Shown: positions 1,987 through 26,945, numbered from the stretch's first letter. The stretch: 54,072 nt of DNA from a bacterium (GCA_018401295.1 JAGYLJ010000004.1:1-54072); one strand, 5' to 3'. Made by a program: numbers and translations. The notes: generated by a model from the letters alone, not told the origin.

Positions 1987-2045
1987 ACTAAAACATTTTT
2001 TTAAAAAAATGTTCGTCCGACCAAAACTTTGTTTTGATTTTAGGA
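1987..2045 (+). repeat. fourth, diverged copy of the 50-bp leader unit, between the adaptor and RND genes
   Basis: ACTAAAACAT...TGTTCGTCCGA...TTTTGATTTTAGG keeps the outer closure and linker of the 131-230 units. Both internal hairpins differ in sequence but still pair. Confidence 0.8.
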
Positions 2046-2066
2046 GGAATTTGAATTTCACGGGGT

Positions 2067-2105
2067 AATATTTTACTAATTCGCTTCGCTCATAAGAAAA
2101 ATATT
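2067..2105 (+). promoter_or_regulatory. leader hairpin abutting the start codon (copy 1 of the GAGCGAAGCGAA-loop hairpin, seen here as its complement)
   Basis: AATATTTTACT / AGAAAAATATT arms around AATTCGCTTCGCTCATA. ATG follows directly. Near-identical to 7845-7883 and 40697-40735. Confidence 0.7.
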
Positions 2106-5100
2106 ATGGAAAAATTTTGGATTTTTTTTATAAAGAAAAAAAGCTTTACGATATTGTTAATTACATCCTTGATTCTTTCTGGTGTTTTTTCATTGGTAAA
2201 TATTACAAAAGAATCAGCCCCTGAGATACAAATTCCGTTGGCAATTGTTTCAACATTTTTGCCTGGATCTTCAGCGTTGGACACAGAAAGATTGATTACT
2301 AATAAGATTGAAGATCAATTAATTAATAATTTAGATTCTCTAAATAAGATCACATCTACTTCAGGGGAAGGGTTTTCTTCTATTGTTGCTGAATTTAATG
2401 CCGATGCTGATATTCAATTGTCTATCCAAAAGGTAAAAGACGAAGTAGATAAAGTGAAGTTTGAGTTACCCTCTGAAGCAGAAGATCCTGTTATTTCAGA
2501 TATAAACTTTGCCGATCAACCTATCTTGATGTTATCTATTTCTAGTGATTTACCAGCCACTGAATTCATTAAATTATCTGAAGATGTGAAGGATGGATTA
2601 AAATCTATCAGTGGTGTTTCAAAGATAAATTTAAGTGGAATTTCTGAGAGGGAAGTTCAAGTGATTGCTAATCAATCAGCGTTATCTAAATTTAATTTAT
2701 CAATTTCTGATCTAGTTAGTGCTATTTCTCAAGCCAATTCTTCTTTACCAATAGGTAATATAGAAATACAAGGGATTAAATATCCGTTAAAATTTAAAGG
2801 TGATGTTATTGACCCTGAAGAGATTAAAGATATTCCGGTTTCAAATATCGGCGGGCAAGTTATTTATGTTAGGGATTTAGCTTTCGTTTCCAACGGCGTA
2901 AGTCAAACATCTTCATTTTCTAGAGTGAGTGTAAATGGACAACCTTCTCAACAGGCTGTTTCATTATCGGTTTTCAAAAAAAGAGGTAGTGATATTACTG
3001 GTATTGTGAATAAGGTGAAAGCAGAGCTAAAAAGTATGCAGGAGGGTGGGATTCTAGAGGGGACTGATGTATTGATTTCAATAGACATGGCTGAGTATCT
3101 GAATGATGATTTGAAGAATTTGTCCATGTCTGGTTTAGCAACTGTTTTATTGGTTACCTTAATTTTATTTTTTGCCATCGGTTGGAGGGAAGCTTTAATT
3201 GCCGGTTTGGCCGTACCCCTTTCATTTTTAGTAGCTTTTTCTGGATTATATTTTACTGGCAATACTCTTAATTTTATTTCATTGTTTGCTTTGATTTTAG
3301 CTGTGGGAATTTTAGTTGATTCCGCTATTGTGGTGACTGAAGCGATGCACGTCAAAATAAAACAGGGAATGAGTGGAAATGATTCAGCTATCAATACTAT
3401 TAAAGAATTTTATGTTCCGCTAACTTCTGGGATGTTGACCACCGTAGCTGCTTTTTTCCCTTTGTTTTTCTTATCTGGGATAATGGGGGCATTTGTTAAA
3501 GGTATTCCCTATACTTTAATTTTCGTTTTGTTTGCTTCTTTGTTTGTGGCTTTAGGGATAGTGCCTTTGATTGCTTTGGTTGTTCTAAAAAGAAATGGGA
3601 ACAGCAATGGTAAATTGTTTCAAAAACAGAAAAAGTATAATGAATTGTTGAGAGAATGGTATAGAGGTAAATTAGAATATATTTTGAGTAACAAAAAATT
3701 TCAGAAAGGTTTTTTGTGGCTGATGGCGGCGGCTTTAATTTTTTCCTTTGTCTTACCTATTTCCGGTTTATTAAAAACAGCATTATTTCCTCTGGAAGAT
3801 TCAAAATTTATTTATATAGATGTGGAGACGTTGCAGGGGACGGTCTTGGCTGAAACAGATTTAGCTGTGAGAGCTGTGGAAGAAATTCTATATGAACAAC
3901 CTTATATTGAGTCTTTTGCTACTTCGGTGGGTTCTTCTAACGTTTTTAGCAATTCAGGAAGTGGTTCTGGCGAAAAACTTGGGAATATTACTGTCATTTT
4001 AAAAAAGGAGAGAGATAAGGGTAGTTTGGAATTGATAGAGGATTTAAGAGTTGAGTTAGCTGGTATAAAAATGGCTAAGGTAACTGTGGCTCAACCAAGT
4101 AACGGTCCTCCTTCTGGAGCTCCTGTTTTGATAAAGTTTTTTGGAGAAAACTTAGATGATTTGGAGAAGGTGGTAATTAAAGCTGAGGATATTCTGAAAA
4201 ATATTCCTGGAACAGTTGATACGACCAATAGTATGAAGGATAATATCACTGAATTTGTTTTGAAAATAAATAGATCTAAATTAACAGAGAATAATTTGTC
4301 ACCTGTTAGAGTGGCTTCAATTTTGAGAACTGCTGTTTATGGGGTGGATGCTACTACTATCAAAACAGGAGGTGAAGATATCGATGTTTTAGTTAAATTA
4401 AATCTTAATACAGATAGCGTTGATCCAAATTTAACTTCTAGAACGACAGTTGATTCAATTAGACAGATGGAAATTAACACACCTAGCGGAGTTGTTTTGT
4501 TGGGTTCTTTGGTGGATGTTACCATCCAGAAAAATAACGCCTCTATTAGCCATGAGGAAGGCGAAAGGATCGCCACTGTGTCAGCTCAATTGAAGAAGGG
4601 GGCTAATGCTGTTGAAATTAATGGAGCATTTCAATCTGAGATGAAGAAAGATCAAACATTTCTTCCTGAGGGAATTTCCTTGAAAACAGGTGGTGAAAAT
4701 GAAGATATTGCGAAGACATTTACAGAGATGCTAATGGCCTTGGTGGCTGGCTTATTGTTGGTGATTGTTGTTTTGATATTACAGTTTAATTCCTATCGTC
4801 AGACTTTCTTTATTGTGGTAGGAGTGTTGATGTCTTTAATTGGTGTTTTGTTTGGTTTGACGATTATTGGGAGTACTTTTTCGTTTCCTTCTTTTATTGG
4901 GGTGATAGCTTTGGCGGGGATTGTGGTGAATAACGCAATTATTTTGATTGATACTATGAATACTATGAGAAAAGAAAAGGTGGGGGTTAGTCTTAGAAAT
5001 ATTGTGATAGAATCTTCGGTTCTTCGTTTAAGACCGATTCTCTTAACCACTTTGACTACAGTTATTGGAATGGCTCCTTTGATTTTTGCTTCCGGTATGT

Positions 5101-5201
5101 GGGGTCCTTTGGCCTATTCAATTATTTTTGGTTTATCTTTTGCAACGGTGATTACTTTGATTTTGATTCCTATTTTGTATTTGAGAGCGTATTCAAAATA
5201 G
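2106..5201 (+). CDS. RND (AcrB/AcrD/AcrF family) efflux permease
   Basis: 1031 aa with a 12-TM layout and two large periplasmic loops, typical AcrB-like sequence throughout. Paired with the upstream adaptor gene. Confidence 0.9.
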   Translation: MEKFWIFFIKKKSFTILLITSLILSGVFSLVNITKESAPEIQIPLAIVSTFLPGSSALDTERLITNKIEDQLINNLDSLNKITSTSGEGFSSIVAEFNADADIQLSIQKVKDEVDKVKFELPSEAEDPVISDINFADQPILMLSISSDLPATEFIKLSEDVKDGLKSISGVSKINLSGISEREVQVIANQSALSKFNLSISDLVSAISQANSSLPIGNIEIQGIKYPLKFKGDVIDPEEIKDIPVSNIGGQVIYVRDLAFVSNGVSQTSSFSRVSVNGQPSQQAVSLSVFKKRGSDITGIVNKVKAELKSMQEGGILEGTDVLISIDMAEYLNDDLKNLSMSGLATVLLVTLILFFAIGWREALIAGLAVPLSFLVAFSGLYFTGNTLNFISLFALILAVGILVDSAIVVTEAMHVKIKQGMSGNDSAINTIKEFYVPLTSGMLTTVAAFFPLFFLSGIMGAFVKGIPYTLIFVLFASLFVALGIVPLIALVVLKRNGNSNGKLFQKQKKYNELLREWYRGKLEYILSNKKFQKGFLWLMAAALIFSFVLPISGLLKTALFPLEDSKFIYIDVETLQGTVLAETDLAVRAVEEILYEQPYIESFATSVGSSNVFSNSGSGSGEKLGNITVILKKERDKGSLELIEDLRVELAGIKMAKVTVAQPSNGPPSGAPVLIKFFGENLDDLEKVVIKAEDILKNIPGTVDTTNSMKDNITEFVLKINRSKLTENNLSPVRVASILRTAVYGVDATTIKTGGEDIDVLVKLNLNTDSVDPNLTSRTTVDSIRQMEINTPSGVVLLGSLVDVTIQKNNASISHEEGERIATVSAQLKKGANAVEINGAFQSEMKKDQTFLPEGISLKTGGENEDIAKTFTEMLMALVAGLLLVIVVLILQFNSYRQTFFIVVGVLMSLIGVLFGLTIIGSTFSFPSFIGVIALAGIVVNNAIILIDTMNTMRKEKVGVSLRNIVIESSVLRLRPILLTTLTTVIGMAPLIFASGMWGPLAYSIIFGLSFATVITLILIPILYLRAYSK

Positions 5202-5253
5202 TCAAAAGTCTATAAAGTCTATAAAGTCGAAAGTTTGTCTAACGACAAGTTGA

Positions 5254-5310
5254 CCCTGTTAGAGATCACAGAAGTCTTTAACTTCTTATCTCTAACGGGG
5301 TTGACTTTTT
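5254..5310 (+). terminator. Rho-independent terminator after the RND gene
   Basis: CCCTGTTAGAGAT (5254-5266) pairs with ATCTCTAACGGGG (5288-5300), with inner AGAAGT/ACTTCT pairing. Followed by TTGACTTTTTG. Confidence 0.6.
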
Positions 5311-5384
5311 GTGGGGTCTTGTTAATATGTAGATATAAGTGGCTTCGGCCTCCACCCTCGTAAGAGGGCGAACAGAAAAAACCG

Positions 5385-5768
5385 TTAGAATAAATTTCTA
5401 ACGGTTTTTCTTAATATCGAATAATTATCTTTATTTAAAACCCCTATTTTTTCAAGTAGTCTTTTTGTGTCAATTACTTTTATTTGCGATAAAACAGCGA
5501 CAGCCTCGTTGTTTTCAACTTTCCCAATGGAGACTCGCAGAGGATGTTTTTTGGTAGATTTGGTCAAAGGGACTATTAGACAAGAAGACGGACCAAAGTC
5601 ACGAATAATAATAACGGGTCTTAAAAATTTTTTTTCACTTCCATCTTGTTCGCATCCTACATTTAAACCTAAATAACACCACCAGATTTCTCGCGGGTGG
5701 TAATATAATTTAACTTCTTTTATATGAATTTCTTTTTTCTTTATGTTCCAATTATCGAAATCTTTCAT
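5385..5768 (-). CDS. MazF/PemK-like toxin-fold protein (solitary)
   Basis: REIWWCYLGLNVGCEQDG...RPVIIIR...LIVPLTKS pattern typical of the PemK/MazF SH3-like barrel. No partner ORF upstream. Confidence 0.65.
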   Translation of the reverse strand: MKDFDNWNIKKKEIHIKEVKLYYHPREIWWCYLGLNVGCEQDGSEKKFLRPVIIIRDFGPSSCLIVPLTKSTKKHPLRVSIGKVENNEAVAVLSQIKVIDTKRLLEKIGVLNKDNYSILRKTVRNLF

Positions 5769-5783
5769 AATGGAATTATAACA
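5769..5783 (-). promoter_or_regulatory. extended -10 (TGTTATAAT) placed 6 nt from the ATG: near-leaderless promoter
   Basis: minus strand reads TGTTATAATTCCATTATG, with no Shine-Dalgarno. Confidence 0.45.
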
Positions 5784-5933
5784 TTTTTATTGAAGAACTA
5801 TTATTTTTGGGTTGTTTCGCTAGACGTTCTCCCATGGTGGACAGGTTTGGGCGGTGGTTCTAAGAAAGGTACCTCTATTAATAGGTACGACCTAGCTGGC
5901 GGTAAAAGAATACTTTATGAGCTTTTGAATTGT

Positions 5934-6761
5934 TTAAACTATATCAGCGAAGTATCTTTCGGTTTTTTTGAAAAAGATAAAACCGATTATTAGAATAACA
6001 AAACAAGTAGCTCCAGAGATAAGTAGTAACGTCCAGTTTATCGGAGCATTACCTAGGAGGGCAGCGCGGGCTGCTTTAATAACACCTGTCATTGGGTTGA
6101 GGGCTAGGATCCAAGAATATTTACCAGCCAAACTAGCAGGATAGATAACTGGAGTTAGATACATCATGATTGAAATGAAGAAAGGTAAAGCATAACGGAC
6201 GTCACGGTATTTGACGTTGATGGAGGCTAGAAAAAGTCCACCACCTACGGAAGCCATAAAGGTAATCAAAAGGAGGAGGGGAAGAATTAAGAGTCCCATT
6301 AGGTTAGGGGTGTATTGATAATAAACCATCATTGCTACTAAAATTGTAGAAGCAATAGCAAAATCAACAAACTTTGTAATAGTTGAGGAAATTGGTAAAA
6401 GTAGACGAGGAAAATATACTTTAGTGATTATCCCTTGATTACTAATAAGACAACTACTGGTGTCAGATAAAGCTCCTGAGAAAAATTGCCAAAGTAAAAG
6501 ACCTGTATATACGAAAATTGGATAGGGAACGCCATCCGATGGCATTTTAGCTAATCCACCAAAGAAGACGCTAAAGACTACCATGGTCATAAATGGTTGA
6601 AAGAGTGCCCAAAGGATTCCGATGGCGGTTTGTTTGTAGCGAACTTTGATGTCTCGCCAAGTAAAGAAATAAAGCAATTCTTTAAATTTCCATAGTTCTT
6701 TGATGTCGTCCCAGCTGATGGTTTTCTTTGGCTTGATAACTGTTACTTTTAAATTTTCCAT
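5934..6761 (-). CDS. ABC-2 type (Wzm/TagG-like) polysaccharide/teichoic-acid export permease
   Basis: 6 TM, KVRYKQTAIGILWALFQP and VYFPRLLLP signatures of the ABC-2 permease family. No ATPase partner in the window. Confidence 0.8.
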   Translation of the reverse strand: MENLKVTVIKPKKTISWDDIKELWKFKELLYFFTWRDIKVRYKQTAIGILWALFQPFMTMVVFSVFFGGLAKMPSDGVPYPIFVYTGLLLWQFFSGALSDTSSCLISNQGIITKVYFPRLLLPISSTITKFVDFAIASTILVAMMVYYQYTPNLMGLLILPLLLLITFMASVGGGLFLASINVKYRDVRYALPFFISIMMYLTPVIYPASLAGKYSWILALNPMTGVIKAARAALLGNAPINWTLLLISGATCFVILIIGFIFFKKTERYFADIV

Positions 6762-12959: not shown

Positions 12960-13140
12960 AGAGCCTATTCAAGATTTCACCGCAAATTAAAAAATAGAGG
13001 CTTGTCGATCGAAATTCCGAAATTTTTGCTACAAATTGTCTTTTTTCCCTCAACATACTTAAGTATGTTTCGTCAAAAAAGAAAATTTTCGCTAAAAATT
13101 TAGAAAATTTCAGTCAGACATGAGATATTGAACAGGCTCT
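12960..13140. repeat. 181-bp imperfect palindrome (MITE-like) in a divergent intergenic region
   Basis: ends AGAGCCTATTCAA / TTGAACAGGCTCT. Perfect 18-bp centre AACATACTTAAGTATGTT (13052-13069). Arms are alignable with one ~24-nt indel. Confidence 0.7.
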
Positions 13141-13866: not shown

Positions 13867-14715
13867 ATGAATAATATTCCCACAATAACCGTAATTAAAG
13901 ATTTGGAAAAAGAAGCGGATGTTTTCGTTAGTTTTTTGAATCATCCACATTTTCCTCAACATCGTCTAAACATTTTTAAGATCTATCCAAAACTGGAGGA
14001 ACAAATTGCTGAGAGCCAAGATGAGAAAATGGCAGTGGTTGAATTTATCAAGTCTTTTTATCAAAAACATCAAGATAAATTAAACATAATTGTAGATGAA
14101 AGTGAGAAGTCATTAGATGAATCGGGTGAGGCATTGAAGCAGTTAGGTGAATTGATGGAATATCAATGGGCGGAAAATACAAATTATAAAGCGTATCCTA
14201 CAATTCTGCCTTTTTCTCCTTTCAATGGAGATGAGTTTTTCTTTTCTATATTGAATTCTTTGTTCAAAAATGAGCCTGTCGATGTTTTGTATGTAGCAAT
14301 TCACGAGATATCTCACTTTATCTTTTTTGATCAAATGGCGGTGATTGAGAATAAAAATAATGTTAAATTTAATGATGACATAGTCTATTATTTCAAGGAA
14401 TCTTTGACGGCAATGATTCTTAATCAAGCCCCCCTTAAAGTGCTTTTGGGTAAAAAAGATATCTTGGGAAATCCAAATATTCGTGATATTCGAGTAAAGA
14501 CAGGGGAGGAGGAAATAAGTTTGGTTGAATTTTTAAGGAAAGAATTTGAAGCTAAAGAAAATTTTGTTGATTTTTTGGAAAAAACTTTGCTGTTATTAAG
14601 AAAATCGGAAGCGGAATTTAATAATAAAAGGGACTTTTGGAATAAAAACGGTCCAAAAATTTTTGAATCTAAAGAAATGTTAGATGAGTATCGAGCACCT
14701 ATTTTAATAAAATAG
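13867..14715 (+). CDS. hypothetical HExxH protein (putative zinc metallopeptidase)
   Basis: single VAIHEISHFIFF HExxH motif, no other recognisable domain. Convergent with the RiPP cassette. Confidence 0.4.
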   Translation: MNNIPTITVIKDLEKEADVFVSFLNHPHFPQHRLNIFKIYPKLEEQIAESQDEKMAVVEFIKSFYQKHQDKLNIIVDESEKSLDESGEALKQLGELMEYQWAENTNYKAYPTILPFSPFNGDEFFFSILNSLFKNEPVDVLYVAIHEISHFIFFDQMAVIENKNNVKFNDDIVYYFKESLTAMILNQAPLKVLLGKKDILGNPNIRDIRVKTGEEEISLVEFLRKEFEAKENFVDFLEKTLLLLRKSEAEFNNKRDFWNKNGPKIFESKEMLDEYRAPILIK

Positions 14716-14739
14716 CCCCCTTACATAAGTAAGAGGGCT
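14714..14739 (-). terminator. terminator of the RiPP cassette (shared convergent hairpin)
   Basis: AGCCCCCTTAC-ATAA-GTAAGAGGGCT. The one non-Watson-Crick position is G.U on the minus-strand RNA but C.A on the plus strand. U-rich tail on the minus strand. Confidence 0.6.
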
Positions 14740-14762
14740 GGTTTGATGTGACCGCTTTGGTT

Positions 14763-14897
14763 TTAAGAGCTGTCACATTCTTCGCAGTTGAAGTCGCAAT
14801 CGTAACAGCCACCCAAAGAATCAGCATGTCTTGATTCCTGAGAGTCATCAGCACTGAATGCTGACATGTCCAATATGCTTTCAAATCCTGCTGGCAT
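14763..14897 (-). CDS. 44-aa RiPP precursor peptide: MPAGFESILDMSAFSADDSQESRHADSLGG-CYDCDFNCEECDSS
   Basis: GGAAGGAGG SD 8 nt before the ATG, 20 nt after the rSAM stop, terminator after it. Double-glycine junction followed by a 14-aa core with 4 Cys and 6 Asp/Glu/Asn. Too short for the ORF track, which lists a wrong-frame 61-aa ORF here. Confidence 0.75.
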   Translation of the reverse strand: MPAGFESILDMSAFSADDSQESRHADSLGGCYDCDFNCEECDSS

Positions 14898-14917
14898 TAT
14901 AATCACCTCCTTCCGTT

Positions 14918-16240
14918 TTAGTTTGTAGATGGCATCATAACCTTTTTATGAACCAAACCTTCTGCAAAGCCCTCTCCGATGATGTTACATTTTTCAATGA
15001 ACACTTCTCGAGTTAGATCTTTGTATTCGGCTAATTCAGTAAAAAGTTTGATGCCATCGTTGTTTAGGTAACACGCAAGGCGCGTACCTAAGAACATAGC
15101 TGCACCGAATGATTCGGGACGCCAACGTATCTTGGGGTTAACTTTAACTTTTGGTGGAATTTCAATTTCTTCCACCTTTCTTTTTTTAAGGAGGTTGTAC
15201 ACCGTATCGGAGTTTTCTGGTAATGAGTATGGATCTAATTCAGAAAGTGACCCAGATCGCATTTTTGCCTCCATACGACATCCACCACCACACCAGGGTA
15301 ATACTTTACATGCTTTGCATATACTTGGAATAAGAGAACCGTCTCTCCATTCAGTCATCCTGTCCCAGATTTCATCCAGATTTTCAGCAAGCATATTTCC
15401 ATAATCCTTATCAAGATGTGTGCAAGGGCGGACATCCCCAGTTGCTGAGATAGCCACTGTGTTTATACCAGCCATACATCGGCGTTTTGACAAATTTTTG
15501 TACTCATCTATTTCCTTTACTCCACAAAACGGGTAACTGCTTAGGGCATCCGTATTCAAACCTTCTTCAAGACCATAAGATCTTAAATCTTTGAGATATT
15601 GACGAAATTCCGTCACATCCAATGAATACTTATTGAAATCTTTACAGTTACCTGGGCAACCAGCTCTGGTACAGTTGAAACTTTTTAGTCCCAACTCTTT
15701 AGCAAGATGCATAGTTTCTAATATATACATCTTGTTCTTTTTGGTTACAACCATGTTTATGGCCACAGGAACATTGAACTTTTGCAACAAATTGATTCCT
15801 TCTACAGTTTGTTGAAAGGCACCGTGTTTCTCAACCAACTGGTCGTGAATTCCTGGGTTAGGGCCTAGAATAGAAGTCATAACGATGGACACTTCTAATT
15901 TTTTAAGCTTGGCACAGTCCCTGTCATTCAAAGTAGTCAAAGTTGAATTAATAGATGTTGTTATTCCGTTTTCTTTTGCTTTCTCGATTGCTCGGAAGAG
16001 AACATTCTTATTGAGAAGAGGCTCTCCTCCAGTTAAGATGATATGGAATATACGATACTCGATTAATTGATCCATGATTGCTTCAATTTGGTTGATTGAC
16101 ATATTTGGTGAACCTTCCAACGAGCATCCCTTGTTGTCTCCTTTGTTTCTCCAAAAATTATAGCAATGCTGACAATTATTGGGGCATAAGGATGATAGTT
16201 CAATCTGAACTACTTGTGGCGCACTTAATTTTTTGTACAT
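14918..16240 (-). CDS. radical SAM / SPASM-domain peptide maturase with C-terminal PqqD-like (RRE-type) extension
   Basis: CPNNCQHC (Cx3Cx2C) at residues 19-26. SPASM cysteines CMAGINTVAISATGDVRPC and CKACKVLPWCGGGC. Tail RWRPESFGAAMFLGTRLACYLNNDGIKLFTEL resembles PqqD-family peptide-binding domains. Confidence 0.85.
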   Translation of the reverse strand: MYKKLSAPQVVQIELSSLCPNNCQHCYNFWRNKGDNKGCSLEGSPNMSINQIEAIMDQLIEYRIFHIILTGGEPLLNKNVLFRAIEKAKENGITTSINSTLTTLNDRDCAKLKKLEVSIVMTSILGPNPGIHDQLVEKHGAFQQTVEGINLLQKFNVPVAINMVVTKKNKMYILETMHLAKELGLKSFNCTRAGCPGNCKDFNKYSLDVTEFRQYLKDLRSYGLEEGLNTDALSSYPFCGVKEIDEYKNLSKRRCMAGINTVAISATGDVRPCTHLDKDYGNMLAENLDEIWDRMTEWRDGSLIPSICKACKVLPWCGGGCRMEAKMRSGSLSELDPYSLPENSDTVYNLLKKRKVEEIEIPPKVKVNPKIRWRPESFGAAMFLGTRLACYLNNDGIKLFTELAEYKDLTREVFIEKCNIIGEGFAEGLVHKKVMMPSTN

Positions 16241-16282
16241 GTTTATTCCTCCTTTTTATTTAAAGGTACATATCTACAAATC

Positions 16283-16310
16283 ATCATACAATAAGTTTGG
16301 AATTAGTCAA
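16283..16310 (-). promoter_or_regulatory. sigma70-type promoter of the rSAM-precursor cassette
   Basis: minus strand TTGACT, 16 nt, TATGAT. AAAGGAGGA SD before ATG 16240. Confidence 0.5.
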
Positions 16311-16386
16311 TGTTTGTGTGACAGCCTAAATTTAATAAATAACTTGCCCTTTTTCTTTTTATGAGGTTTTGATAGAATCTTTATAT

Positions 16387-16548
16387 ATGATATTTATTAA
16401 AGAAGCACGAGAAATACTTGGCAAGGATTATGAAAACTGCTCTGATGAAGAAATAGAGAAAGTAATAGATGGAGCTTATATGTTCGCTGATATTTTTTTG
16501 GAAGGAGTAATAGACAAAGAAGAAAGATCATCTAATGATTTAACTTAA
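16387..16548 (+). CDS. 53-aa acidic hypothetical protein (not in ORF track)
   Basis: open frame MIFIKEAREILGKDYENCSDEEIEKVIDG..., no SD. Confidence 0.3.
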   Translation: MIFIKEAREILGKDYENCSDEEIEKVIDGAYMFADIFLEGVIDKEERSSNDLT

Positions 16549-16595
16549 TTAAGTATATCAAGACCTATTTTTGTGGTATATTTAATTTAAATATC

Positions 16596-17234
16596 ATGGC
16601 GACAACAACTGATTTAATTTTATTGCAATATTTAGAGATTTTAGAGAAGACTAATCAGCAGTTAGGTCTTTGGACTAATCCTTATGGGGTTATGGTAACG
16701 GTCTTATCTTTTATAATTGCTGTTTTGGCTGTGGTGTTTGCTTTTTATTTATGGAAACAAAGTAAGGATTACCAAGAAAAATTTGATAGTTTTTTGAAAA
16801 AACTACAAAACAATTTTGATGTTGAAATTAAGAAAAATTTAAAACTTAGATCTAAGCAAAATAAACAGTTAGAAAAAATTATGTCTGAAAAGAAGAAAGA
16901 AATGGAAGATTTAACAGGAGAAGCTAAAAATAAGGTAGAAAAGGAAGTTAAAGAAATTCAAGAAATAAAAAAAACTCTAAACAGACAGTCTATAGTCCCT
17001 CTTTCTTCGGTAGGTGAATACGGAGATCGTTTTTATGGGGAAGATATAAATATTCGTTCTTCGTGTGGTTTGGAACCAATAATTGGCTCTTCTTTAAATA
17101 CTTCATGTGTTAAAAAATGTGAAAAATGTGGGAATATTTATTTGGATCCTAGTACCAACTGTGGACCTGGTATTGCTCTTGTTTCTTTAGAAACAAAAGA
17201 ATCAAAATGTCCTTATTGTGGCAATCTAAATTAA
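16596..17234 (+). CDS. membrane-anchored coiled-coil protein with C-terminal Cys4 zinc ribbon
   Basis: one TM (VMVTVLSFIIAVLAVVFAFYLW), K/E-rich coiled coil, CVKKCEKC...CPYC. Confidence 0.55.
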   Translation: MATTTDLILLQYLEILEKTNQQLGLWTNPYGVMVTVLSFIIAVLAVVFAFYLWKQSKDYQEKFDSFLKKLQNNFDVEIKKNLKLRSKQNKQLEKIMSEKKKEMEDLTGEAKNKVEKEVKEIQEIKKTLNRQSIVPLSSVGEYGDRFYGEDINIRSSCGLEPIIGSSLNTSCVKKCEKCGNIYLDPSTNCGPGIALVSLETKESKCPYCGNLN

Positions 17235-21950: not shown

Positions 21951-23981
21951 ATGCAAATATCAGAACTTATAAAATCCAGCGGTAAATACGATTTAACCGT
22001 ATTTTCAGAAGAAAGTATAGACAGGATTGAGGAAAATATCCTTGAAGACAAGGGTAAATTTTTCATTAAATGTCTTGTCAGAGAAAGAGATATTCAAGTA
22101 AAACCAGAGGAGATTGTTCGGCAGTTGATGATAGACAAACTTATCAATGAATATAATTATCCAAAAGATTTGCTTAGGGTTGAACATACCGTTACTTTCG
22201 GAAAGGAAAAGAAATCGGCTGATATTGTTATCTTAAACAAAGCAGACAAAACCAGTGTTTATTGTGTGCTTGAAATCAAAAAATATAATCTCAAAGAGGG
22301 TAAAGAACAATTAAAAAGTTATACCAATGCCACAGGAGCACCTTTGGCAGTCTGGACGAATGGGACAGAGATAGATTTTTATGAAAGGCTTGATCCTAAT
22401 TACTTTGAACCACTTTCAGATATTCCCAAAGCAAATGAAACGATTGATGATGTAAAAAACGAAAGGTTTACCTACCTCGGCTTAATGCAAAAAGATAGGT
22501 TGTTAGAAGAGAGAAAAAGTCTTAAAGCGTTGATACAGGAAATTGAAGATGAAGTTTTGGCTAATGCTGGAGTAGATGTTTTTGAAGAAGTTTTCAAACT
22601 TATTTTTACCAAACTTTATGATGAAATGGAAAGTTCTGAAGACAGAGTTTCTATTGAAAGAGATTTTAAGAGAATTAAAAAAGATAATCCTGATTTAACC
22701 GATAAAGAAGTTTTAGATAAAATTGATAATAGTGATTTTAGAAAACTTGAATTTAGAAGTCGTGGAGATGCTTATCATACCAAAGAAGTTATCAATGAAT
22801 TATTCAAGAAAGCCAAAAACAAATGGCAGGGTATTTTTGATCAAGGAGAACCATTAAGGATAACAGATGTGAACCATTTACAAATTTGTGTTGGTTTTTT
22901 GCAGAATGTAAAACTTTTTAACTCTAATCTTCAAGTTATTGATGAAGCCTTTGAGTATTTGGTAAATAAATCAGCCAAAGGAGAAAAGGGACAATACTTT
23001 ACACCAAGAAATGTAATTGATATGTGTGTCTATATGATGAACCCGAAGCCGAGTGAATATATGATAGATACGGCTTGTGGTTCTTGTGGTTTTACCGTCC
23101 ACACCCTCTTTAATGTCTGGAATAAATTACAAAATCAAGGTAAAGCCAATTTTCATAACTTCTCAAACCAAAAATTGACCCAAGAACAGAAAGATTATGT
23201 TGTTAAGGTGTTTGGTATTGATTTTGACGAAAAGTCCGTGCGTGTCGCCAGAACCCTTAATATGATTGCAGGAGACGGGAGAACCAATGTTTTGCACCTA
23301 AACACCCTTGATTACACCCGTTGGGAGGAAAAAATAAAGGATAGCGAATGGGGCAGGACTTATCTTGAAGGTTTTTATCGTTTGCTTGATTTAGCCAAAG
23401 ATAGAAAAAATCCAAAAGAATTTAATTTTGATATGGTTATGGCTAATCCGCCTTTTGCGGGAGATATAAAAGATGGACGTTTGATCTCTGATTATAATGT
23501 GGCTTTTAACAAAGGGAAAAAAGTAAATAAAATTTCAAGGGATATTTTATTTATTGAAAGAAATTTAGATTTCTTAAAAGACGGTGGAAGAATGGCAATT
23601 GTTTTACCACAAGGCAGATTTAACAATACATCAGATGAAAGAATACGAGAATTTGTAATGGAAAAGGCACGACTTATTGCAGTGGTTGGTTTAGATGGTA
23701 ATACTTTCAAACCTCACACAGGAACAAAGACTTCTGTTTTGTTTGTCCAAAAATGGGACGATAAAATCAATCCAAAAGTAGAAGACTACCCTGTGTTTAT
23801 GGCTGTATCAGAAAATTCTGGTAAAGATAATTCAGGAGAGGAAATTTATGAAGTTGACGAAAAGACAGGAGAAAGAAAGGTAGATGAACATAACCACTTA
23901 ATGCAAAAACACGACTTAGACGATATTGCTTTTGCTTTTGAAAAATGGGCAAAGGAGAATAAATTGAGTTTTTGGAAATAA
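21951..23981 (+). CDS. N6-adenine DNA methyltransferase fused to an N-terminal HSDR_N-type PD-(D/E)xK domain (BcgI-A-like / HsdM-like)
   Basis: N-terminus PEEIVRQL...ADIVILNK..VYCVLEIKK...AVWTNGTEIDFYER. MTase motif I DTACGSCGF and motif IV NPPFAG. Confidence 0.85.
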   Translation: MQISELIKSSGKYDLTVFSEESIDRIEENILEDKGKFFIKCLVRERDIQVKPEEIVRQLMIDKLINEYNYPKDLLRVEHTVTFGKEKKSADIVILNKADKTSVYCVLEIKKYNLKEGKEQLKSYTNATGAPLAVWTNGTEIDFYERLDPNYFEPLSDIPKANETIDDVKNERFTYLGLMQKDRLLEERKSLKALIQEIEDEVLANAGVDVFEEVFKLIFTKLYDEMESSEDRVSIERDFKRIKKDNPDLTDKEVLDKIDNSDFRKLEFRSRGDAYHTKEVINELFKKAKNKWQGIFDQGEPLRITDVNHLQICVGFLQNVKLFNSNLQVIDEAFEYLVNKSAKGEKGQYFTPRNVIDMCVYMMNPKPSEYMIDTACGSCGFTVHTLFNVWNKLQNQGKANFHNFSNQKLTQEQKDYVVKVFGIDFDEKSVRVARTLNMIAGDGRTNVLHLNTLDYTRWEEKIKDSEWGRTYLEGFYRLLDLAKDRKNPKEFNFDMVMANPPFAGDIKDGRLISDYNVAFNKGKKVNKISRDILFIERNLDFLKDGGRMAIVLPQGRFNNTSDERIREFVMEKARLIAVVGLDGNTFKPHTGTKTSVLFVQKWDDKINPKVEDYPVFMAVSENSGKDNSGEEIYEVDEKTGERKVDEHNHLMQKHDLDDIAFAFEKWAKENKLSFWK

Positions 23982-23985
23982 AAAA

Positions 23986-25026
23986 ATGACTAATGAACAA
24001 ATAACAACTGAAAATGTATTAAGTGTTGATATAAAAAAGTTAGCACTAAATTCTGATTTTGGAAAAATGATTTTTGAAAATGCAAATATAAAATTAACAA
24101 AAATCCAAAATTGGCTAAAGGAAGCAAAAGATTTAGAATATGAAAAACTTCTTATTGAGAAAGATAAAAAACAAATAATTACATTTATAAATCAACTTAT
24201 AGAACACTTAGAGTGGCTACGAAATTTTGATATTGGGAATGTCTCAAACACTCAGGCAGAGCACGATAATTTTGATAATAGAATAAATAGTTATTACGAT
24301 ACAGTTTATCAAAATTTAGTAATGAAATACCTACCTTTTTTAAGAGAGGAAAAAAGGAGACAAAATCCTAATGAAAAAAAATTGGAAGAAGAAGTTCGTA
24401 ATGTATCACAACTCCGCAAGAATTTAGAGAAAGAATTAGAAAATGTAAAAATTGATATTGAAAAAATAAGAACAACAGGTAAAGAGGTTGGGTCGGCTAA
24501 AGGAACTCGTGCTACTTTAGATACAGGGAAACATTTTAATGATGAAGTAACTCGTTATGAAAAATTAGCAAAAGTGTGGTTAATATCAGCCGTGTTTTGT
24601 TATTTTGTAATTATAGTGGTTCTTTTTTGGTTAGGAAGCGAAACTTTTTCTTATTTAGAAAAATTGATTAAATCATCTAATAATCCAGAAACTTCTTATA
24701 TAAGTTCTATTTGGGGAGTTGTAGTTTCTAAATTAGTTATTTTGGCAACTTTATGGTATGGGCTTTCTTTTGTTATAAAAAATTATAATGTAAATTCACA
24801 TCTTGCATCTGTAAATAGACATAGGGCAACTGTGGCTAAAACTTTGGAGGATTTTATTTCAGCCGAACAACAACAGGAAAAACCAAGATTATCAGAAATG
24901 TTACAAAACGCCACAGAAGCGATGTTCAAAAATGCTCCAATAGGTTTTATTTCAAAAACAGAAAAAGAAACAGGAAACCCTGTTTTGCAAATAGTAAATG
25001 ATATTATGGGGGCTAACGAGAAATAA
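23986..25026 (+). CDS. coiled-coil protein with two C-terminal TM helices, embedded in the RM operon
   Basis: long K/E-rich helical N-terminal part, TM1 VWLISAVFCYFVIIVVLFWLG, TM2 IWGVVVSKLVILATLWYGLSFVI. 5-nt gap from the methylase stop. Confidence 0.6.
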   Translation: MTNEQITTENVLSVDIKKLALNSDFGKMIFENANIKLTKIQNWLKEAKDLEYEKLLIEKDKKQIITFINQLIEHLEWLRNFDIGNVSNTQAEHDNFDNRINSYYDTVYQNLVMKYLPFLREEKRRQNPNEKKLEEEVRNVSQLRKNLEKELENVKIDIEKIRTTGKEVGSAKGTRATLDTGKHFNDEVTRYEKLAKVWLISAVFCYFVIIVVLFWLGSETFSYLEKLIKSSNNPETSYISSIWGVVVSKLVILATLWYGLSFVIKNYNVNSHLASVNRHRATVAKTLEDFISAEQQQEKPRLSEMLQNATEAMFKNAPIGFISKTEKETGNPVLQIVNDIMGANEK

Positions 25027-25043
25027 ACTAAGTTTAATAATTT

Positions 25044-25601
25044 ATGTCAGATTTAGTAGAAAAATTAAATAAAAATCACTCAGAGGAATTAAAAAAGATG
25101 AGTATTTTATTTTATCTATTAAATAGAATTGAAAATAATCTTAATATCATTATAGAAATTTTCTTTTGTGATTTTAATCAACTGAAAAATGTTATCTTAA
25201 ATCAAATCCTCTTGAATAAAAATATGAAATTAGAGACGAAAAGAATGATGTTTTTGAAAATAATTGAACACACTACAAGATACGCAGAAGAAGGTAATTT
25301 TGAATTTGAAGAGGATAAGTGGTTAAAATTTTGTAAAGACTTACAAAAAATTCAAGAAATTAGAAATAAGTTGGCTCATAAGTTTTTAGGGTTTAACCAA
25401 AATGTTGTTTCCTATCAAGAAACCTTAAAGAACAATAATAATAAAAATTATTCCTTTAATAAAAAAGAAATAAATTTAGATGAGGAAATAAAAAAGTTTG
25501 ATAAAATTTTTGATGAAAGTGAGTTATTGCTTACTGATTTTCTAAAACAGGTGTTGCCGATTGTTCGTGATTGTCAAAAATGTAATTTATCTGATATATA
25601 A
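25044..25601 (+). CDS. small HEPN-like protein (RNxxxH motif), embedded in the RM operon
   Basis: IQEIRNKLAHKF = R-N-x3-H in a predicted helical protein of 185 aa. 4-nt gap to hsdS. Confidence 0.5.
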   Translation: MSDLVEKLNKNHSEELKKMSILFYLLNRIENNLNIIIEIFFCDFNQLKNVILNQILLNKNMKLETKRMMFLKIIEHTTRYAEEGNFEFEEDKWLKFCKDLQKIQEIRNKLAHKFLGFNQNVVSYQETLKNNNNKNYSFNKKEINLDEEIKKFDKIFDESELLLTDFLKQVLPIVRDCQKCNLSDI

Positions 25602-25604
25602 AAT

Positions 25605-26945
25605 ATGCCACAAATAAGCACAGTTAAATACTCCGATATTCAAGAAGCAAAAAGATATGACGCTGAGTATTTTAAGCCTGAGTATATTGAAATATCAAAT
25701 AATTTAAAGAGATTAAAATCACAAGATTTAGAAAAATATTGTATTTTTGTAAAGAAAGGGATTTTTGACATATCCCCAACAAAATATAAAAATAAAGGGG
25801 TTCCATTTTTAAGAGTATCTAATACAAAATCATTTTTTATTAACAATGAAGATATGGTTTATCTTGATGAAGAAACGCACAATGAAAATAATAAAACTGA
25901 ATTAAGAAAAGGAGATATAGTTCTGTCTAAGGTTGGAACAATTGGAGATGCTGTAATAAATTTAGATTATGAAAAAATAAATTTTAGTCAAAATAATATC
26001 GGTATTAAAATTAAACAAGATGAAATTAACCCTGCTTACGTTATCGCTTTTTTCAATTCAAAATATGGGAGAAAACAAATTGAGAAACAGCAATCTGGTC
26101 AAGTTCAAGAAAAAATAGTCTTAGATGATATAAAATTTTTAAAAATTCCAAGGTTGAATAATGAAAATTTAATTGCATATAAAGTCTTAGAATCAAAACA
26201 AAAACAAAATAAATCAAAAGATTTATATAGGCAAGCCGAAGAATTGCTTTTGAAAGAATTGAATTTGCTGGATTATAAACTAAAACATAGTTTGTCTTTT
26301 GAAGCTACTGCAAAAGATATAAAAGAAGTTAAAAGGTTTGATAGTGAATATTTTCAACCAAAATATGAAGAAGTTATAAGTAAAGTTGAAAGTTATAAAA
26401 ATGGTTGGGATTTTGTTAAAAATCAGTTTAGCCAAAATAACTTTATTTTTAAAAGCGATAAAGATTATTATAACTATATAGAAATTAGTGATATAAACGT
26501 CTCAAATGGAGGAATAAGCCCCAACAAAGTCAGGACAGAAGACTTACCCGCTAATGCAAAAAGAAAACTAAACAAAGGCGATTTGCTAATTTCAAAAGTT
26601 AGACCTTACAGAGGGGCTGTATCTTTTATTGATTTTGAGTTAGAGAACCTTGTCGGAAGCGGTGCTTTTACTGTTTTGCGAGAAAAAACAAATTATAAAA
26701 AAGAAGTTTTGATGATTTTTTTGAGGACTTCTTTTATAAGGAATTTGTTGTTACGTTATAATTCAGGAACTTCTTATCCTGTGATTGTTGATAAAGATAT
26801 CTTGGATACGAAAATACCTTTGATTGATATAAAACTTCAAAAACAAATTTCAGAAAAGATAAAAGAAAGTTATGGATTAAGAAAAGAAAGTGAACAACTT
26901 CTTGAACAAGCCAAAAGAATGGTTGAGGAAGAAATTGAGAGGTAA
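25605..26945 (+). CDS. hsdS: restriction-modification specificity subunit (HsdS-like, two TRDs)
   Basis: duplicated architecture: RYDAEYFKPEY and RFDSEYFQPKY open each half, with conserved helical spacers (LYRQAEELLLKEL, LLEQAKRMVEEEI). Confidence 0.85.
   Translation: MPQISTVKYSDIQEAKRYDAEYFKPEYIEISNNLKRLKSQDLEKYCIFVKKGIFDISPTKYKNKGVPFLRVSNTKSFFINNEDMVYLDEETHNENNKTELRKGDIVLSKVGTIGDAVINLDYEKINFSQNNIGIKIKQDEINPAYVIAFFNSKYGRKQIEKQQSGQVQEKIVLDDIKFLKIPRLNNENLIAYKVLESKQKQNKSKDLYRQAEELLLKELNLLDYKLKHSLSFEATAKDIKEVKRFDSEYFQPKYEEVISKVESYKNGWDFVKNQFSQNNFIFKSDKDYYNYIEISDINVSNGGISPNKVRTEDLPANAKRKLNKGDLLISKVRPYRGAVSFIDFELENLVGSGAFTVLREKTNYKKEVLMIFLRTSFIRNLLLRYNSGTSYPVIVDKDILDTKIPLIDIKLQKQISEKIKESYGLRKESEQLLEQAKRMVEEEIER

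What the first reader, a model, noticed from the sequence alone, without database searches (positions are those of the whole stretch)
14714..16310. Self-contained radical SAM/SPASM cassette with an unannotated 44-aa double-glycine, Cys/Asp/Glu-rich precursor: candidate new thioether (ranthipeptide/sactipeptide-like) RiPP
Seen directly: a promoter (TTGACT-16-TATGAT) is followed by a 440-aa rSAM gene with Cx3Cx2C and a full SPASM cysteine set. Twenty nt later comes a strong SD and a 44-codon ORF on the minus strand (14763-14897), then a terminator. The ORF is absent from the track. The peptide is MPAGFESILDMSAFSADDSQESRHADSLGG|CYDCDFNCEECDSS: an acidic leader ending in GG, and a 14-residue core with 4 Cys (CxxC-x3-CxxC) interleaved with Asp/Glu/Asn. 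Established knowledge: SPASM rSAM enzymes install Cys-to-carbon thioethers, on Asp/Glu in QhpD/QhpC, on Asp in PapB/PapA and on Thr in SCIFF-type peptides. An acidic, Cys-dense core is therefore the expected substrate type. Unusual points: the RRE/PqqD-like segment appears to sit at the C-terminus of the enzyme rather than the N-terminus. There is no C39 peptidase/ABC exporter, although the leader ends in GG. The cassette is the first cargo of a mobile element in what looks like a reduced genome.
Basis: partly seen in the sequence, partly recalled or inferred. Interest (0 to 1): 0.85.

Follow-up and report, generated by a model that had tools for sequence, protein, structure and literature searches.

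The report
Three-gene Cys-rich peptide maturation cassette
A radical-SAM enzyme, a tiny unannotated cysteine/aspartate-rich peptide gene and a previously unnoticed zinc-protease-like gene form a conserved cassette found in hundreds of ultra-small (Patescibacteria/CPR) bacteria, most likely making an undescribed cross-linked peptide.

Summary
A 440-aa radical SAM/SPASM gene (14918-16240, minus strand) is followed after 20 nt by a Shine-Dalgarno site, a 44-codon ORF (14763-14897) and a terminator hairpin.

The small ORF is a genuine gene.
- In 52 of 75 related loci, a Cys-rich small ORF starts within -40 to +120 nt of the orthologous rSAM stop. About 0.3 loci would be expected by chance.
- 87 of 91 family peptides share the core D-C-[YHF]-D-C-[DN]-x-N-C-E-E-C-D, and 86 of 91 carry a leader motif G-F-E-[ST]-[IL]-L.

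The enzyme reaches no curated family cut-off (anSME, AhbD/NirJ, PqqE and PapB are all far below).

- The "double-glycine" is not conserved (1 of 87).
- The cassette is not self-contained. The convergent neighbour (13867-14715, plus strand) is a conserved partner with an invariant HExxH...E and no Pfam family. A sister clade carries a Peptidase_MA_2 gene instead.
- The C-terminal RRE is supported only by predicted topology and a weak profile match.
- The mobile-element context is plausible, because a serine recombinase lies at 37433-39103.

The thioether chemistry is inferred, not shown. No paper or curated model describing this family was found.

The parts
16283..16310 (-). Sigma-70-like promoter candidate TTGACT-16-TATGAT upstream of the rSAM gene
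   Evidence: 10 of 12 matches, the best site in 14400-16700. The count of such sites is not above shuffled expectation, so this is a candidate only.
14918..16240 (-). Radical SAM/SPASM peptide maturase, 440 aa (stop codon included)
   Evidence: Pfam finds Radical_SAM and SPASM. More than 300 homologues of 35-67% identity, mostly from Patescibacteria. AF2 pLDDT 93. Foldseek hits are anSME, SuiB, SkfB, TigE, PqqE and ChlB. No NCBIfam cut-off is reached.
16163..16186 (-). Cx3Cx2C motif (C19, C23, C26) for the SAM-binding [4Fe-4S] cluster
   Evidence: Invariant in 66 aligned homologues; read directly from the sequence.
15278..15526 (-). SPASM/auxiliary-cluster cysteines: C239, C255, C273, C308-x2-C311-x5-C317-x3-C321
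   Evidence: All are invariant in alignment A2. Pfam SPASM covers residues 255-312.
14921..15163 (-). C-terminal winged-helix, RRE-like domain (residues about 360-440), the proposed leader-binding module. There is no N-terminal RRE, because the rSAM motif starts at residue 19.
   Evidence: AF2 topology is four strands then three helices at pLDDT of at least 95. R374, E376 and G379 are invariant. hhalign against a PqqD alignment gives E 0.0036 and probability 9% over 78 colinear columns. No Pfam or PDB sequence hit.
14903..14911 (-). Shine-Dalgarno AGGAGGTGA, 5 nt upstream of the peptide ATG
   Evidence: read directly.
14763..14897 (-). Precursor peptide gene, 44 aa (stop codon included): MPAGFESILDMSAFSADDSQESRHADSLGGCYDCDFNCEECDSS
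   Evidence: It belongs to a family of at least 91 peptides encoded beside orthologous rSAM genes. None has a Pfam or NCBIfam model.
14868..14888 (-). Conserved leader motif G-F-E-S-I-L-D (residues 4-10)
   Evidence: The motif G-F-E-[ST]-[IL]-L or a close variant occurs in 86 of 91 family peptides, 21-35 residues upstream of the core.
14772..14807 (-). Conserved core C-Y-D-C-D-F-N-C-E-E-C-D (residues 31-42), which reads as two C-x-x-C-D units
   Evidence: The core motif is present in 87 of 91 peptides. C31, D33, C34 and C38 are invariant among those carrying the motif.
14714..14739 (-). Intrinsic-terminator hairpin (11 bp, 6 GC) with a T-run. It closes the rSAM-peptide operon and abuts the stop codon of the convergent gene.
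13867..14715 (+). Conserved partner gene, 282 aa: a zincin-like protein with HExxH...E (H146, E147, H150, E178), the proposed leader peptidase
   Evidence: A homologue lies next to the rSAM and peptide in 36 loci. No Pfam, NCBIfam or PHROG hit. AF2 pLDDT 94.9 with no PDB neighbour at E<1e-3. hhalign against the Peptidase_MA_2-type partners aligns HExxH and E178 with the zinc-ligand Glu (E 8e-4).
14302..14316 (+). HEISH motif of the partner protein. E178 is encoded at 14398-14400.
   Evidence: Invariant in 61 homologues.

Best explanation
This is a three-component RiPP (ribosomally made, post-translationally modified peptide) cassette. Patescibacteria-type genomes share it widely.

Proposed mechanism, with shown and inferred steps marked:
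1. The rSAM gene and the 44-codon precursor are transcribed together and end at the hairpin. The gene arrangement is shown; co-transcription is inferred.
2. The precursor has an N-terminal leader with the conserved strand-like motif GFESILD. Its C-terminal core is CYDCDFNCEECD (shown).
3. The enzyme has no N-terminal recognition domain. Its C-terminal winged-helix domain (residues about 360-440) most likely docks the leader (inferred).
4. The Cx3Cx2C cluster cleaves SAM to give a 5'-deoxyadenosyl radical. The radical abstracts a hydrogen from a core residue. A Cys thiolate, probably held at an auxiliary SPASM cluster, then closes a thioether ring (inferred).
5. By analogy with PapB, which links Cys to Asp/Glu in Cys-X3-Asp/Glu motifs, the two C-x-x-C-D units suggest C31->D35 and C38->D42 links (inferred).
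6. The convergent HExxH...E protein then removes the leader (inferred from synteny and motif).
7. No exporter is part of the conserved unit. The product may therefore act inside the cell or leave by a general route.

My estimates: a real rSAM-plus-precursor pair, about 0.9. The HExxH protein as a functional partner, about 0.8, and as the leader peptidase, about 0.6. Cys-derived thioether chemistry, about 0.55. The specific Cys-to-Asp/Glu non-alpha links, about 0.35.
For: Anatomy.

Enzyme class:
- Radical_SAM plus SPASM, with invariant Cx3Cx2C and seven or more invariant auxiliary Cys.
- AF2 pLDDT 93. The nearest solved folds are peptide- or protein-modifying SPASM enzymes: anSME, SuiB, SkfB, TigE, PqqE and ChlB.

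Precursor:
- Cys-rich ORF immediately downstream in 52 of 75 loci and within 1.5 kb in 60 of 75; background 0.057 per kb.
- 89 database peptides match a profile of the family.
- The core motif is in 87 of 91 and the leader motif in 86 of 91.
- The core stays nearly identical where the rSAM has diverged to about 40% identity, for example L010 and L013.

Partner:
- The HExxH protein is found beside the pair by phmmer in 17 loci and by jackhmmer in about 37.
- Contig lengths are shared between the rSAM and HExxH hit lists.
- 65 of 82 loci carry family A or the Peptidase_MA_2-type family B.
- H146, E147, H150 and E178 are invariant. E178 aligns with the MA-clan Glu ligand.

C-terminal domain: topology, a weak PqqD profile match, and faster evolution than the catalytic core (28% against 48% mean column identity).

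Chemistry analogy: PapB and Cys-X3-Asp/Glu (PMC9413430 abstract); ranthipeptide and SCIFF background (PMC8326336).
Against: - No modification has been observed; the chemistry rests on analogy.
- The enzyme is not a member of the PapB, SCIFF, sactisynthase or QhpD families by curated models. PapB scores 65 bits against a cut-off of 340.
- In distant clades of the same rSAM family the cores lack acidic residues, for example CYCHCACACH and PPPPC repeats. Asp/Glu acceptors therefore cannot be general to the family.
- Some close relatives lack the fourth Cys and final Asp (NCEESNSS, NCEEHG). That breaks the second proposed ring.
- RRE assignment failed by Pfam, by a PDB profile search and by single-sequence hhalign.
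- The HExxH protein has no significant structural neighbour, and it is transcribed convergently, not in the operon.
- No exporter is conserved.
Confidence: 0.6

Rival explanations
1. Same cassette, different chemistry. The rSAM acts on the downstream peptide but does not make Cys-Asp/Glu thioethers. Possible alternatives are C-alpha sactionine links, oxidation at a Cys C-beta as in anSME, carbon-carbon or carbon-oxygen cross-links through the conserved aromatic residues, or epimerisation.
For: - The best structural neighbour is anSME (E 8e-18).
- The enzyme is about equally distant from all characterised SPASM families.
- Cys is the only feature common to the cores of all clades.
- Aromatic residues are frequent at core positions 2 and 6 (Y/H/F in 79 of 87; Y/F in 63 of 87).
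Against: - D33 is invariant, and D/N35, N37, E39, E40 and D42 are strongly conserved in this clade. That fits acceptor roles of the PapB or NxxC type (PMC9413430; PMC8326336).
- The aromatic positions tolerate Val, Ile and Thr.
Confidence: 0.22
2. The product is an intracellular functional peptide, such as a metal-binding peptide, a redox cofactor precursor or a signalling peptide. It is not a secreted antimicrobial. This concerns role rather than chemistry and can coexist with the best explanation.
For: - No exporter, C39 peptidase or immunity gene is conserved in the cassette; only the rSAM, the peptide and the HExxH families recur.
- The HExxH protein has no evident signal peptide or membrane segment (by reading).
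- The core is almost invariant across deeply diverged hosts. The same is true of SCIFF peptides, and the review PMC8326336 uses that point to argue against an antimicrobial role.
- The core has 4-5 Cys and 5-6 carboxylates within 14 residues.
Against: - The cassette is sporadic. There are 230 confirmed loci among 185,579 species genomes, and 440 representative clusters of the partner among 1.84 billion proteins.
- It sits in accessory, defence-rich regions in the window and in L081. This is more typical of conflict or competition cargo than of a cofactor.
- No client enzyme co-occurs.
Confidence: 0.3
3. The rSAM is a non-peptide SPASM enzyme, either AhbD/NirJ-like (tetrapyrrole) or a sulfatase maturase, and the small ORF is incidental.
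For: The top NCBIfam E-values are for AhbD and NirJ2. The top Foldseek hit is anSME.
Against: - All these scores are far below cut-off: 117 against 500, 105 against 500, 68 against 349.
- There are no heme d1/siroheme or sulfatase genes nearby.
- The precursor is conserved and syntenic across the family.
- An extra C-terminal winged-helix domain is present.
Confidence: 0.03
4. The 44-codon ORF is a chance reading frame.
For: It is short and was not called by gene finders.
Against: - A strong Shine-Dalgarno site lies at the correct spacing.
- 87 of 91 homologous peptides carry the same 13-residue core.
- The position is conserved in 52 of 75 loci, against about 0.3 expected.
Confidence: 0.01

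Closest known systems
Ranthipeptides of the PapB/PapA (freyrasin) type
   Same: A radical SAM/SPASM maturase acts on a small, acidic, Cys-rich precursor. Cys-X3-Asp/Glu spacing is present twice in the core (C31..D35 and C38..D42). PapB links Cys to Asp/Glu in such motifs (PMC9413430).
   Different: - The enzyme scores 65 bits against a PapB cut-off of 340.
- The core is a single 12-13-residue block with CxxC pairs, not six spaced CX3D repeats.
- The recognition-like domain is C-terminal.
- The partner is a novel HExxH protein.
- The hosts are Patescibacteria. The chemistry is untested.
[quoted passage not shown]
   Same: A precursor of about 45 aa with a Cys-rich C-terminus lies next to a SPASM maturase. 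The core is highly conserved across a whole lineage. A physiological rather than antibiotic role is suspected (PMC8326336).
   Different: - No SCIFF peptide or maturase model is matched.
- The gene order is enzyme then peptide.
- The core is rich in Asp/Glu/Asn and has no Thr acceptor.
- CteB has an N-terminal RRE (from my own knowledge); here the N-terminus has none.
QhpD/QhpC (quinohemoprotein amine dehydrogenase gamma-subunit cross-linking)
   Different: QhpC is an enzyme subunit and sits with qhpA/B/E/F/G genes, none of which is present here. QhpD is not among the 25 best-scoring NCBIfam matches, none of which reached its cut-off.
PqqE/PqqD and other systems that depend on an RRE (RiPP recognition element)
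   Same: The SPASM enzyme appears to need a PqqD-like winged-helix module to bind the precursor leader. The C-terminal domain shows the R-x-E, h-L-N-x-x-g-x-x-x-L and F-l-x-x-L pattern in register with PqqD.
   Different: - The module is fused to the C-terminus, rather than being a separate protein or an N-terminal domain.
- No PqqD HMM hit.
- PqqE scores 74.5 against a cut-off of 381.
- C-terminal RREs are reported for proteusin epimerases, which lack SPASM clusters (PMC8326336).
MA-clan gluzincin peptidases (Pfam Peptidase_MA_2), and RiPP leader metalloproteases such as PqqF/G or AlbE/F
   Same: The signature is HExxH plus a downstream Glu on the next helix. A sister clade of the same rSAM family carries a bona fide Peptidase_MA_2 gene in the equivalent position.
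   Different: The window's partner matches no Pfam, NCBIfam or PHROG model. It has no PDB structural neighbour at E<1e-3. It is only weakly alignable to family B (E 8e-4). PqqF and AlbE/F are M16 enzymes with an inverted HxxEH motif (from my own knowledge).

Membership tests
Radical SAM / SPASM superfamily | Cx3Cx2C cluster motif within a Radical_SAM domain | tested here: met
   Pfam PF04055 at 5.9e-22. C19, C23 and C26 are invariant in 66 homologues.
Radical SAM / SPASM superfamily | SPASM domain with CX2CX5CX3C and further Cys for two auxiliary clusters | tested here: met
   PF13186 scores 29.7 bits against a cut-off of 21.5. C239, C255, C273, C308, C311, C317 and C321 are invariant.
PapB-type ranthipeptide maturase (NF047865) | Score above the curated equivalog cut-off | tested here: not met
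   65 bits against a cut-off of 340.
Ranthipeptide (class definition) | Cys sulfur linked to a non-alpha carbon of an acceptor residue | not testable with these tools
   This needs MS/MS and NMR of the modified peptide. Only the Cys-X3-Asp spacing is visible in the sequence.
SCIFF system (peptide plus maturase models) | The precursor matches the SCIFF peptide model and the maturase matches the SCIFF maturase model | tested here: not met
   The peptide has 0 NCBIfam hits at E<=0.1. No SCIFF maturase appears among the 25 best-scoring matches, and none of the matches shown reaches its cut-off.
Anaerobic sulfatase maturase | Score above the TIGR03942 / NF010321 cut-off | tested here: not met
   68.1 against 349 and 54.9 against 441. 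The structural similarity is generic to SPASM enzymes (20% identity).
AhbD / NirJ tetrapyrrole SPASM enzymes | Score above the equivalog cut-off, and a heme or siroheme pathway context | tested here: not met
   117 against 500 and 105 against 500. No such genes are in the neighbourhood.
PqqD-like RRE (RiPP recognition element) | Detectable homology to PqqD/RRE profiles | tested here: inconclusive
   - Pfam: no PqqD hit for the window domain or for 36 homologous domains.
- PDB profile search: nothing.
- hhalign against one PqqD sequence: probability 0.4%.
- hhalign against an 11-sequence PqqD alignment: E 0.0036, probability 9%, full-length colinear.
PqqD-like RRE (RiPP recognition element) | Winged-helix fold: a three-stranded sheet followed by three helices | tested here: met
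   The AF2 model has strands 371-376, 379-384 and 387-393 (plus 364-367), then helices 394-403, 411-418 and 425-431, at pLDDT of at least 95. This is predicted, not solved, and the isolated domain could not be fold-searched.
PqqD-like RRE (RiPP recognition element) | Binds the precursor leader | not testable with these tools
   This needs a binding assay or a complex prediction. No multimer prediction was available.
Double-glycine (C39/ABC-processed) leader peptides | A conserved GG/GA/GS cleavage motif at the leader-core junction, plus a C39-ABC transporter | tested here: not met
   GG directly precedes the core in 1 of 87 peptides. The closest relative has WDD. No C39/ABC gene is conserved in the loci.
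Gluzincin / MA-clan metallopeptidase (partner protein) | HExxH plus a downstream Glu zinc ligand | tested here: met
   H146, E147, H150 and E178 are invariant in 61 sequences. They lie on consecutive predicted helices, 140-164 and 170-185. E178 aligns with the E-G-L-A Glu of the Peptidase_MA_2-type partners.
Gluzincin / MA-clan metallopeptidase (partner protein) | A significant match to a peptidase family model or structure | tested here: not met
   No Pfam, NCBIfam or PHROG hit. Only sub-threshold zincin hits (M78, DUF3267) in relatives. Best Foldseek hit is ERAP1 at E 0.21.

The most novel reading that the evidence does not exclude
The cassette makes a new class of modified peptide. The near-invariant DCYDCDYNCEECD core would be processed by a SPASM enzyme with a C-terminal recognition domain and by a new-fold zincin. 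The product would have a chemistry or role not covered by sactipeptides or ranthipeptides. One example is an intracellular metal-binding or cofactor-like molecule, or a host-interaction factor, specific to ultra-small episymbiotic or predatory lineages (Patescibacteria, with outliers labelled DPANN, Bdellovibrionota and Omnitrophota).
Probability: 0.2. Interest if true: 0.85.

Novelty: new variant of a known kind. Interest (0 to 1): 0.62.

Why it matters
Patescibacteria (the candidate phyla radiation) have tiny genomes, and routine genome mining usually reports few or no biosynthetic clusters in them. One survey read here found none in its Patescibacteria genomes (PMC11613949).

The precursor is often not called as a gene. 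The partner protein has no family. The enzyme is labelled only "radical SAM protein".

The cassette nevertheless recurs in hundreds of genomes, with a precursor core conserved far more tightly than the enzyme. That gives a well-defined, testable entry point to a peptide natural product, or functional peptide, of organisms that cannot be cultured alone.

It would also add to the RiPP toolbox a SPASM architecture with a C-terminal recognition-like domain and a new putative leader peptidase.

Tried and rejected
1. Pfam and NCBIfam on the peptide, on the HExxH protein and on the isolated C-terminal domain gave no hits.
2. A PDB sequence-profile search with the C-terminal domain returned only chance-level hits.
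3. hhalign of that domain against a single PqqD sequence was not significant. I then built an 11-sequence PqqD alignment from annotated plasmid pqqD genes. This raised the result only to E 0.0036, probability 9%.
4. Foldseek with the HExxH model against PDB found nothing at E<1e-3.
5. I looked for an integrase or transposase next to the cassette with Pfam, NCBIfam and PHROGs and found none. Clean att-like direct repeats were also absent. The only recombinase is 21 kb away.
6. Literature searches for Patescibacteria/CPR with ranthipeptide, SPASM, radical SAM or RiPP, and for the motif string NCEECD, found no description of this family. The supplementary precursor list of the rSAM-RiPP compendium (PMC10288494) is not held as text and could not be checked.
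7. An exact-sequence look-up of the window's rSAM contig, to identify the sample, is not on record.
8. I rejected the double-glycine reading, the chance-ORF reading and the anSME or AhbD membership readings.


Full report
**1. Checking the observation**

The minus strand of 14500-16500 was read directly and ORFs were listed.
- TTGACT-16-TATGAT lies at 16283-16310. It is the best promoter-like site in the region, although such sites are not enriched over shuffles.
- A 440-aa ORF lies at 14918-16240, with C19-x3-C23-x2-C26.
- A 20-nt spacer carries AGGAGGTGA, 5 nt before an ATG at 14897.
- A 44-codon ORF (14763-14897) encodes MPAGFESILDMSAFSADDSQESRHADSLGGCYDCDFNCEECDSS.
- An 11-bp hairpin with a T-run lies at 14714-14739.
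- Pfam finds Radical_SAM (5.9e-22) and SPASM (7.8e-07) in the enzyme and nothing in the peptide.

**2. Is the small ORF a gene?**

The enzyme has more than 300 database homologues of 35-67% identity. Almost all are 430-450 aa, and those that carry a name come from Patescibacteria/CPR bins. A scan of species-representative genomes returned 230 confirmed loci, of which 80 were fetched.

Scripted ORF scans gave these results:
- A Cys-rich ORF of 38-70 aa starts between -40 and +120 nt of the rSAM stop, on the same strand, in 52 of 75 evaluable loci.
- One lies within 1.5 kb in 60 of 75.
- ORFs meeting the same criteria occur at 0.057 per kb elsewhere in these loci. That predicts about 0.3 loci by chance.

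A profile of 17 such peptides retrieved 89 database peptides. All are labelled hypothetical and none has a Pfam domain. Across 91 non-identical peptides:
- 87 contain the core D-C-[YHF]-D-C-[DN]-[YFV]-N-C-E-E-C-D.
- 86 carry a leader motif G-F-E-[ST]-[IL]-L or a close variant, 21-35 residues upstream of the core.

The closest relative (rSAM 67% identical, locus L081) encodes MPAGFESIIDMPERVSDNAQELVHVDSWDDCYDCNYNCEESNSS in the same position.

The core stays almost unchanged where the enzyme has diverged to about 40% identity. The window has a single copy. The exact peptide is absent from a 15-billion-protein collection, which fits its being uncalled. The ORF is therefore a real, conserved precursor-type gene.

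**3.

In several loci a gene separates the peptide from the rSAM, and its product contains HExxH. The window's convergent neighbour (13867-14715, plus strand, 282 aa) also contains HEISH and is homologous to one of these products (27% identity over 169 aa).
- phmmer finds this protein beside the rSAM and peptide in 17 loci, usually in the same convergent position. jackhmmer finds it in about 37 loci.
- A database search gave 68 homologues, all hypothetical and without Pfam domains. Many sit on contigs whose lengths match those in the rSAM hit list.
- H146, E147, H150 and E178 are invariant in 61 sequences.
- All-against-all clustering of neighbourhood ORFs found only three recurring families. 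These are the rSAM (80 loci), this HExxH family A (36 loci), and a second HExxH family B (31 loci).
- Family B members pass the Pfam Peptidase_MA_2 cut-off.
- In total 65 of 82 loci carry one of the two families. Several of the rest are truncated contigs.
- Profile-profile alignment of A against B superposes the HExxH helices. It places E178 on the zinc-ligand Glu of the E-G-L-A motif (E 8e-4, probability 25%).
- The AF2 model is confident (pLDDT 94.9) but has no PDB neighbour at E<1e-3. The weak top hits are M1-type aminopeptidases.
- Family A is small: 440 representative clusters at E<=1e-3 among 1.84 billion proteins.

I read this protein as a divergent gluzincin-like leader peptidase. The synteny is shown; the activity is inferred.

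**4. The enzyme**

No NCBIfam model reaches its cut-off.

| Model | Bits | Cut-off |
|---|---|---|
| AhbD | 117 | 500 |
| NirJ2 | 105 | 500 |
| WgkB | 102 | 650 |
| PqqE | 74.5 | 381 |
| anSME | 68 | 349 |
| PapB | 65 | 340 |
| AlbA | 61 | 850 |
| MftC | 60.5 | 265 |

The AF2 model (pLDDT 93) matches SPASM enzymes generically at 14-22% identity: anSME, SuiB, SkfB, TigE, PqqE and ChlB. This is a separate, uncurated SPASM family.

The N-terminus starts directly with the rSAM motif, so there is no N-terminal recognition domain. Residues about 360-440 are predicted as four strands followed by three helices, which is the winged-helix layout of PqqD-like RREs.

Sequence tests of that assignment were mostly negative:
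- No Pfam hit for this domain or for 36 homologous domains.
- No PDB profile hit.
- Not significant against one PqqD sequence (that sequence was validated as PqqD).

Against an 11-sequence PqqD alignment built from annotated plasmid genes, hhalign gives E 0.0036 and probability 9%. The 78 aligned columns are colinear and match the R-x-E, h-L-N-x-x-g-x-x-x-L and F-l-x-x-L elements.

The domain evolves faster than the catalytic core (28% against 48% mean column identity). That is expected if it tracks variable leaders. I rate the C-terminal RRE as likely but not demonstrated.

**5.

- Double-glycine: GG precedes the core in only 1 of 87 peptides, while Asp precedes it in 78 of 87. Many relatives have an additional Cys two or three residues upstream.
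- Mobile element: there is no integrase or transposase near the cassette and no clean att repeats. However, the stretch from about 13.6 to 39.1 kb is low in GC (26-31%, against 37% in the cassette and 33-40% in the flanks). It is full of ORFans. It carries a type I R-M / MADS-like system at 21951-26945. It ends at a large serine recombinase at 37433-39103 (Resolvase + Recombinase + Zn_ribbon_recom).
- Core genes flank this stretch. RelA/SpoT, PAP2, a sugar transferase and KhpA lie on the left. YchF and LeuRS lie on the right. In L081 the cassette also sits among restriction and methylase genes. An accessory-island location is plausible, but the element's ends are not defined.
- Reduced genome: this fits the Patescibacteria affiliation of nearly all named homologues. 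The window's own taxon was not determined.

**6. Mechanism**

The steps below are inferred unless marked as shown.
1. The rSAM and the precursor are co-transcribed. The gene arrangement is shown.
2. The leader motif GFESILD docks on the C-terminal winged-helix domain.
3. The SAM cluster generates a 5'-deoxyadenosyl radical, which abstracts a hydrogen from a core residue.
4. A Cys thiolate closes a thioether.
5. The HExxH protein removes the leader.

The core reads as two C-x-x-C-D units (C31-Y-D-C34-D35 and C38-E-E-C41-D42). Each contains the Cys-X3-Asp spacing that PapB cross-links (PMC9413430). Beta-carbon links to Asp and Asn are known in freyrasin and NxxcA (PMC8326336).

There are caveats:
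- Distant clades of the same enzyme family have cores without acidic residues (CYCHCACACH, PPPPC repeats, GGCDSSGCDNCQSGCEGG). Cys is the only common denominator.
- Some close relatives lack C41 and D42.
- No exporter or immunity gene is conserved.
- The core is nearly invariant, which resembles SCIFF peptides. Reviewers take that feature as arguing against an antibiotic role (PMC8326336).

**7. Comparison and novelty**

The system works like a ranthipeptide or sactipeptide pathway, but it fails the membership tests for the PapB, SCIFF, PqqE, anSME and AhbD/NirJ families. It differs from them in several ways:
- the position of the recognition-like domain;
- its HExxH partner;
- its precursor family;
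- its host range.

No curated model and no paper in the searchable corpus describes it. One deadwood metagenome study reported no BGCs at all in its Patescibacteria genomes.

I class it as a new variant of a known kind. It is interesting mainly as a well-defined, widely conserved and experimentally tractable RiPP-type system of CPR bacteria.

Noticed in passing
window 37433-39103 (+): A large serine recombinase (Resolvase, Recombinase and Zn_ribbon_recom domains) is followed at once by YchF and LeuRS. It marks the right end of a low-GC region of about 24 kb, rich in ORFans and defence genes, whose left end is near the RiPP cassette.
   Followed up: partly
window 21951-26945 (+): A restriction-modification or defence cluster. 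It has an N6_Mtase/HSDR_N fusion (676 aa) and a specificity-subunit-like protein that matches the methylation-associated defence system model MAD5 below its cut-off (157 bits against 400).
   Followed up: partly
window 30440-30557 (+): A full-length match to the Rfam LOOT RNA motif (77 bits, gathering score 46), inside the ORFan-rich island.
   Followed up: no
window 34275-35091 (+): Three copies of a 31-nt upstream sequence (AAxTAATTxAAAAAAAATGAAAxCAxTTAAA) are spaced about 270-290 nt apart. Each starts a small ORF (85, 63 and 82 aa, beginning MKT/MKS), giving a tandem set of small genes with a shared 5' end.
   Followed up: no
loci L033, L034, L036 (about 6050-6355) and L054: A sister clade of the rSAM family has the gene order rSAM, Peptidase_MA_2 gene, then a precursor. 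In L033, L034 and L036 the precursor core consists of Pro-rich repeats ending in Cys (for example PPPPCVGKPPPPCVGKPPPPCYG). This is a very different substrate type for a related enzyme.
   Followed up: partly
loci L050, L065, L038, L052, L031, L076, L072 (record titles): Outside Patescibacteria, related cassettes appear in bins labelled archaeon/Nanoarchaeota (DPANN), Bdellovibrionota/Bdellovibrionales and Omnitrophica. Many of these lineages are small-celled, symbiotic or predatory. The bin labels were not verified.
   Followed up: no
window 270-6761: A HlyD-family adaptor, an AcrB-type RND pump and an ABC-2 permease lie 8-14 kb from the cassette. They are not conserved next to the cassette in other loci, so no link is claimed.
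   Followed up: partly
window 13012-13109: A 52-nt imperfect palindrome (75% complementary) lies in the intergenic region between the sugar-transferase gene and the KhpA-like gene, close to the left edge of the low-GC island.
   Followed up: no
several loci (97 rSAM ORFs in 80 loci): Some loci carry two paralogous rSAM/SPASM genes of this family, and some carry two HExxH genes (for example L049 and L059). This suggests tandem duplication of the cassette.
   Followed up: no
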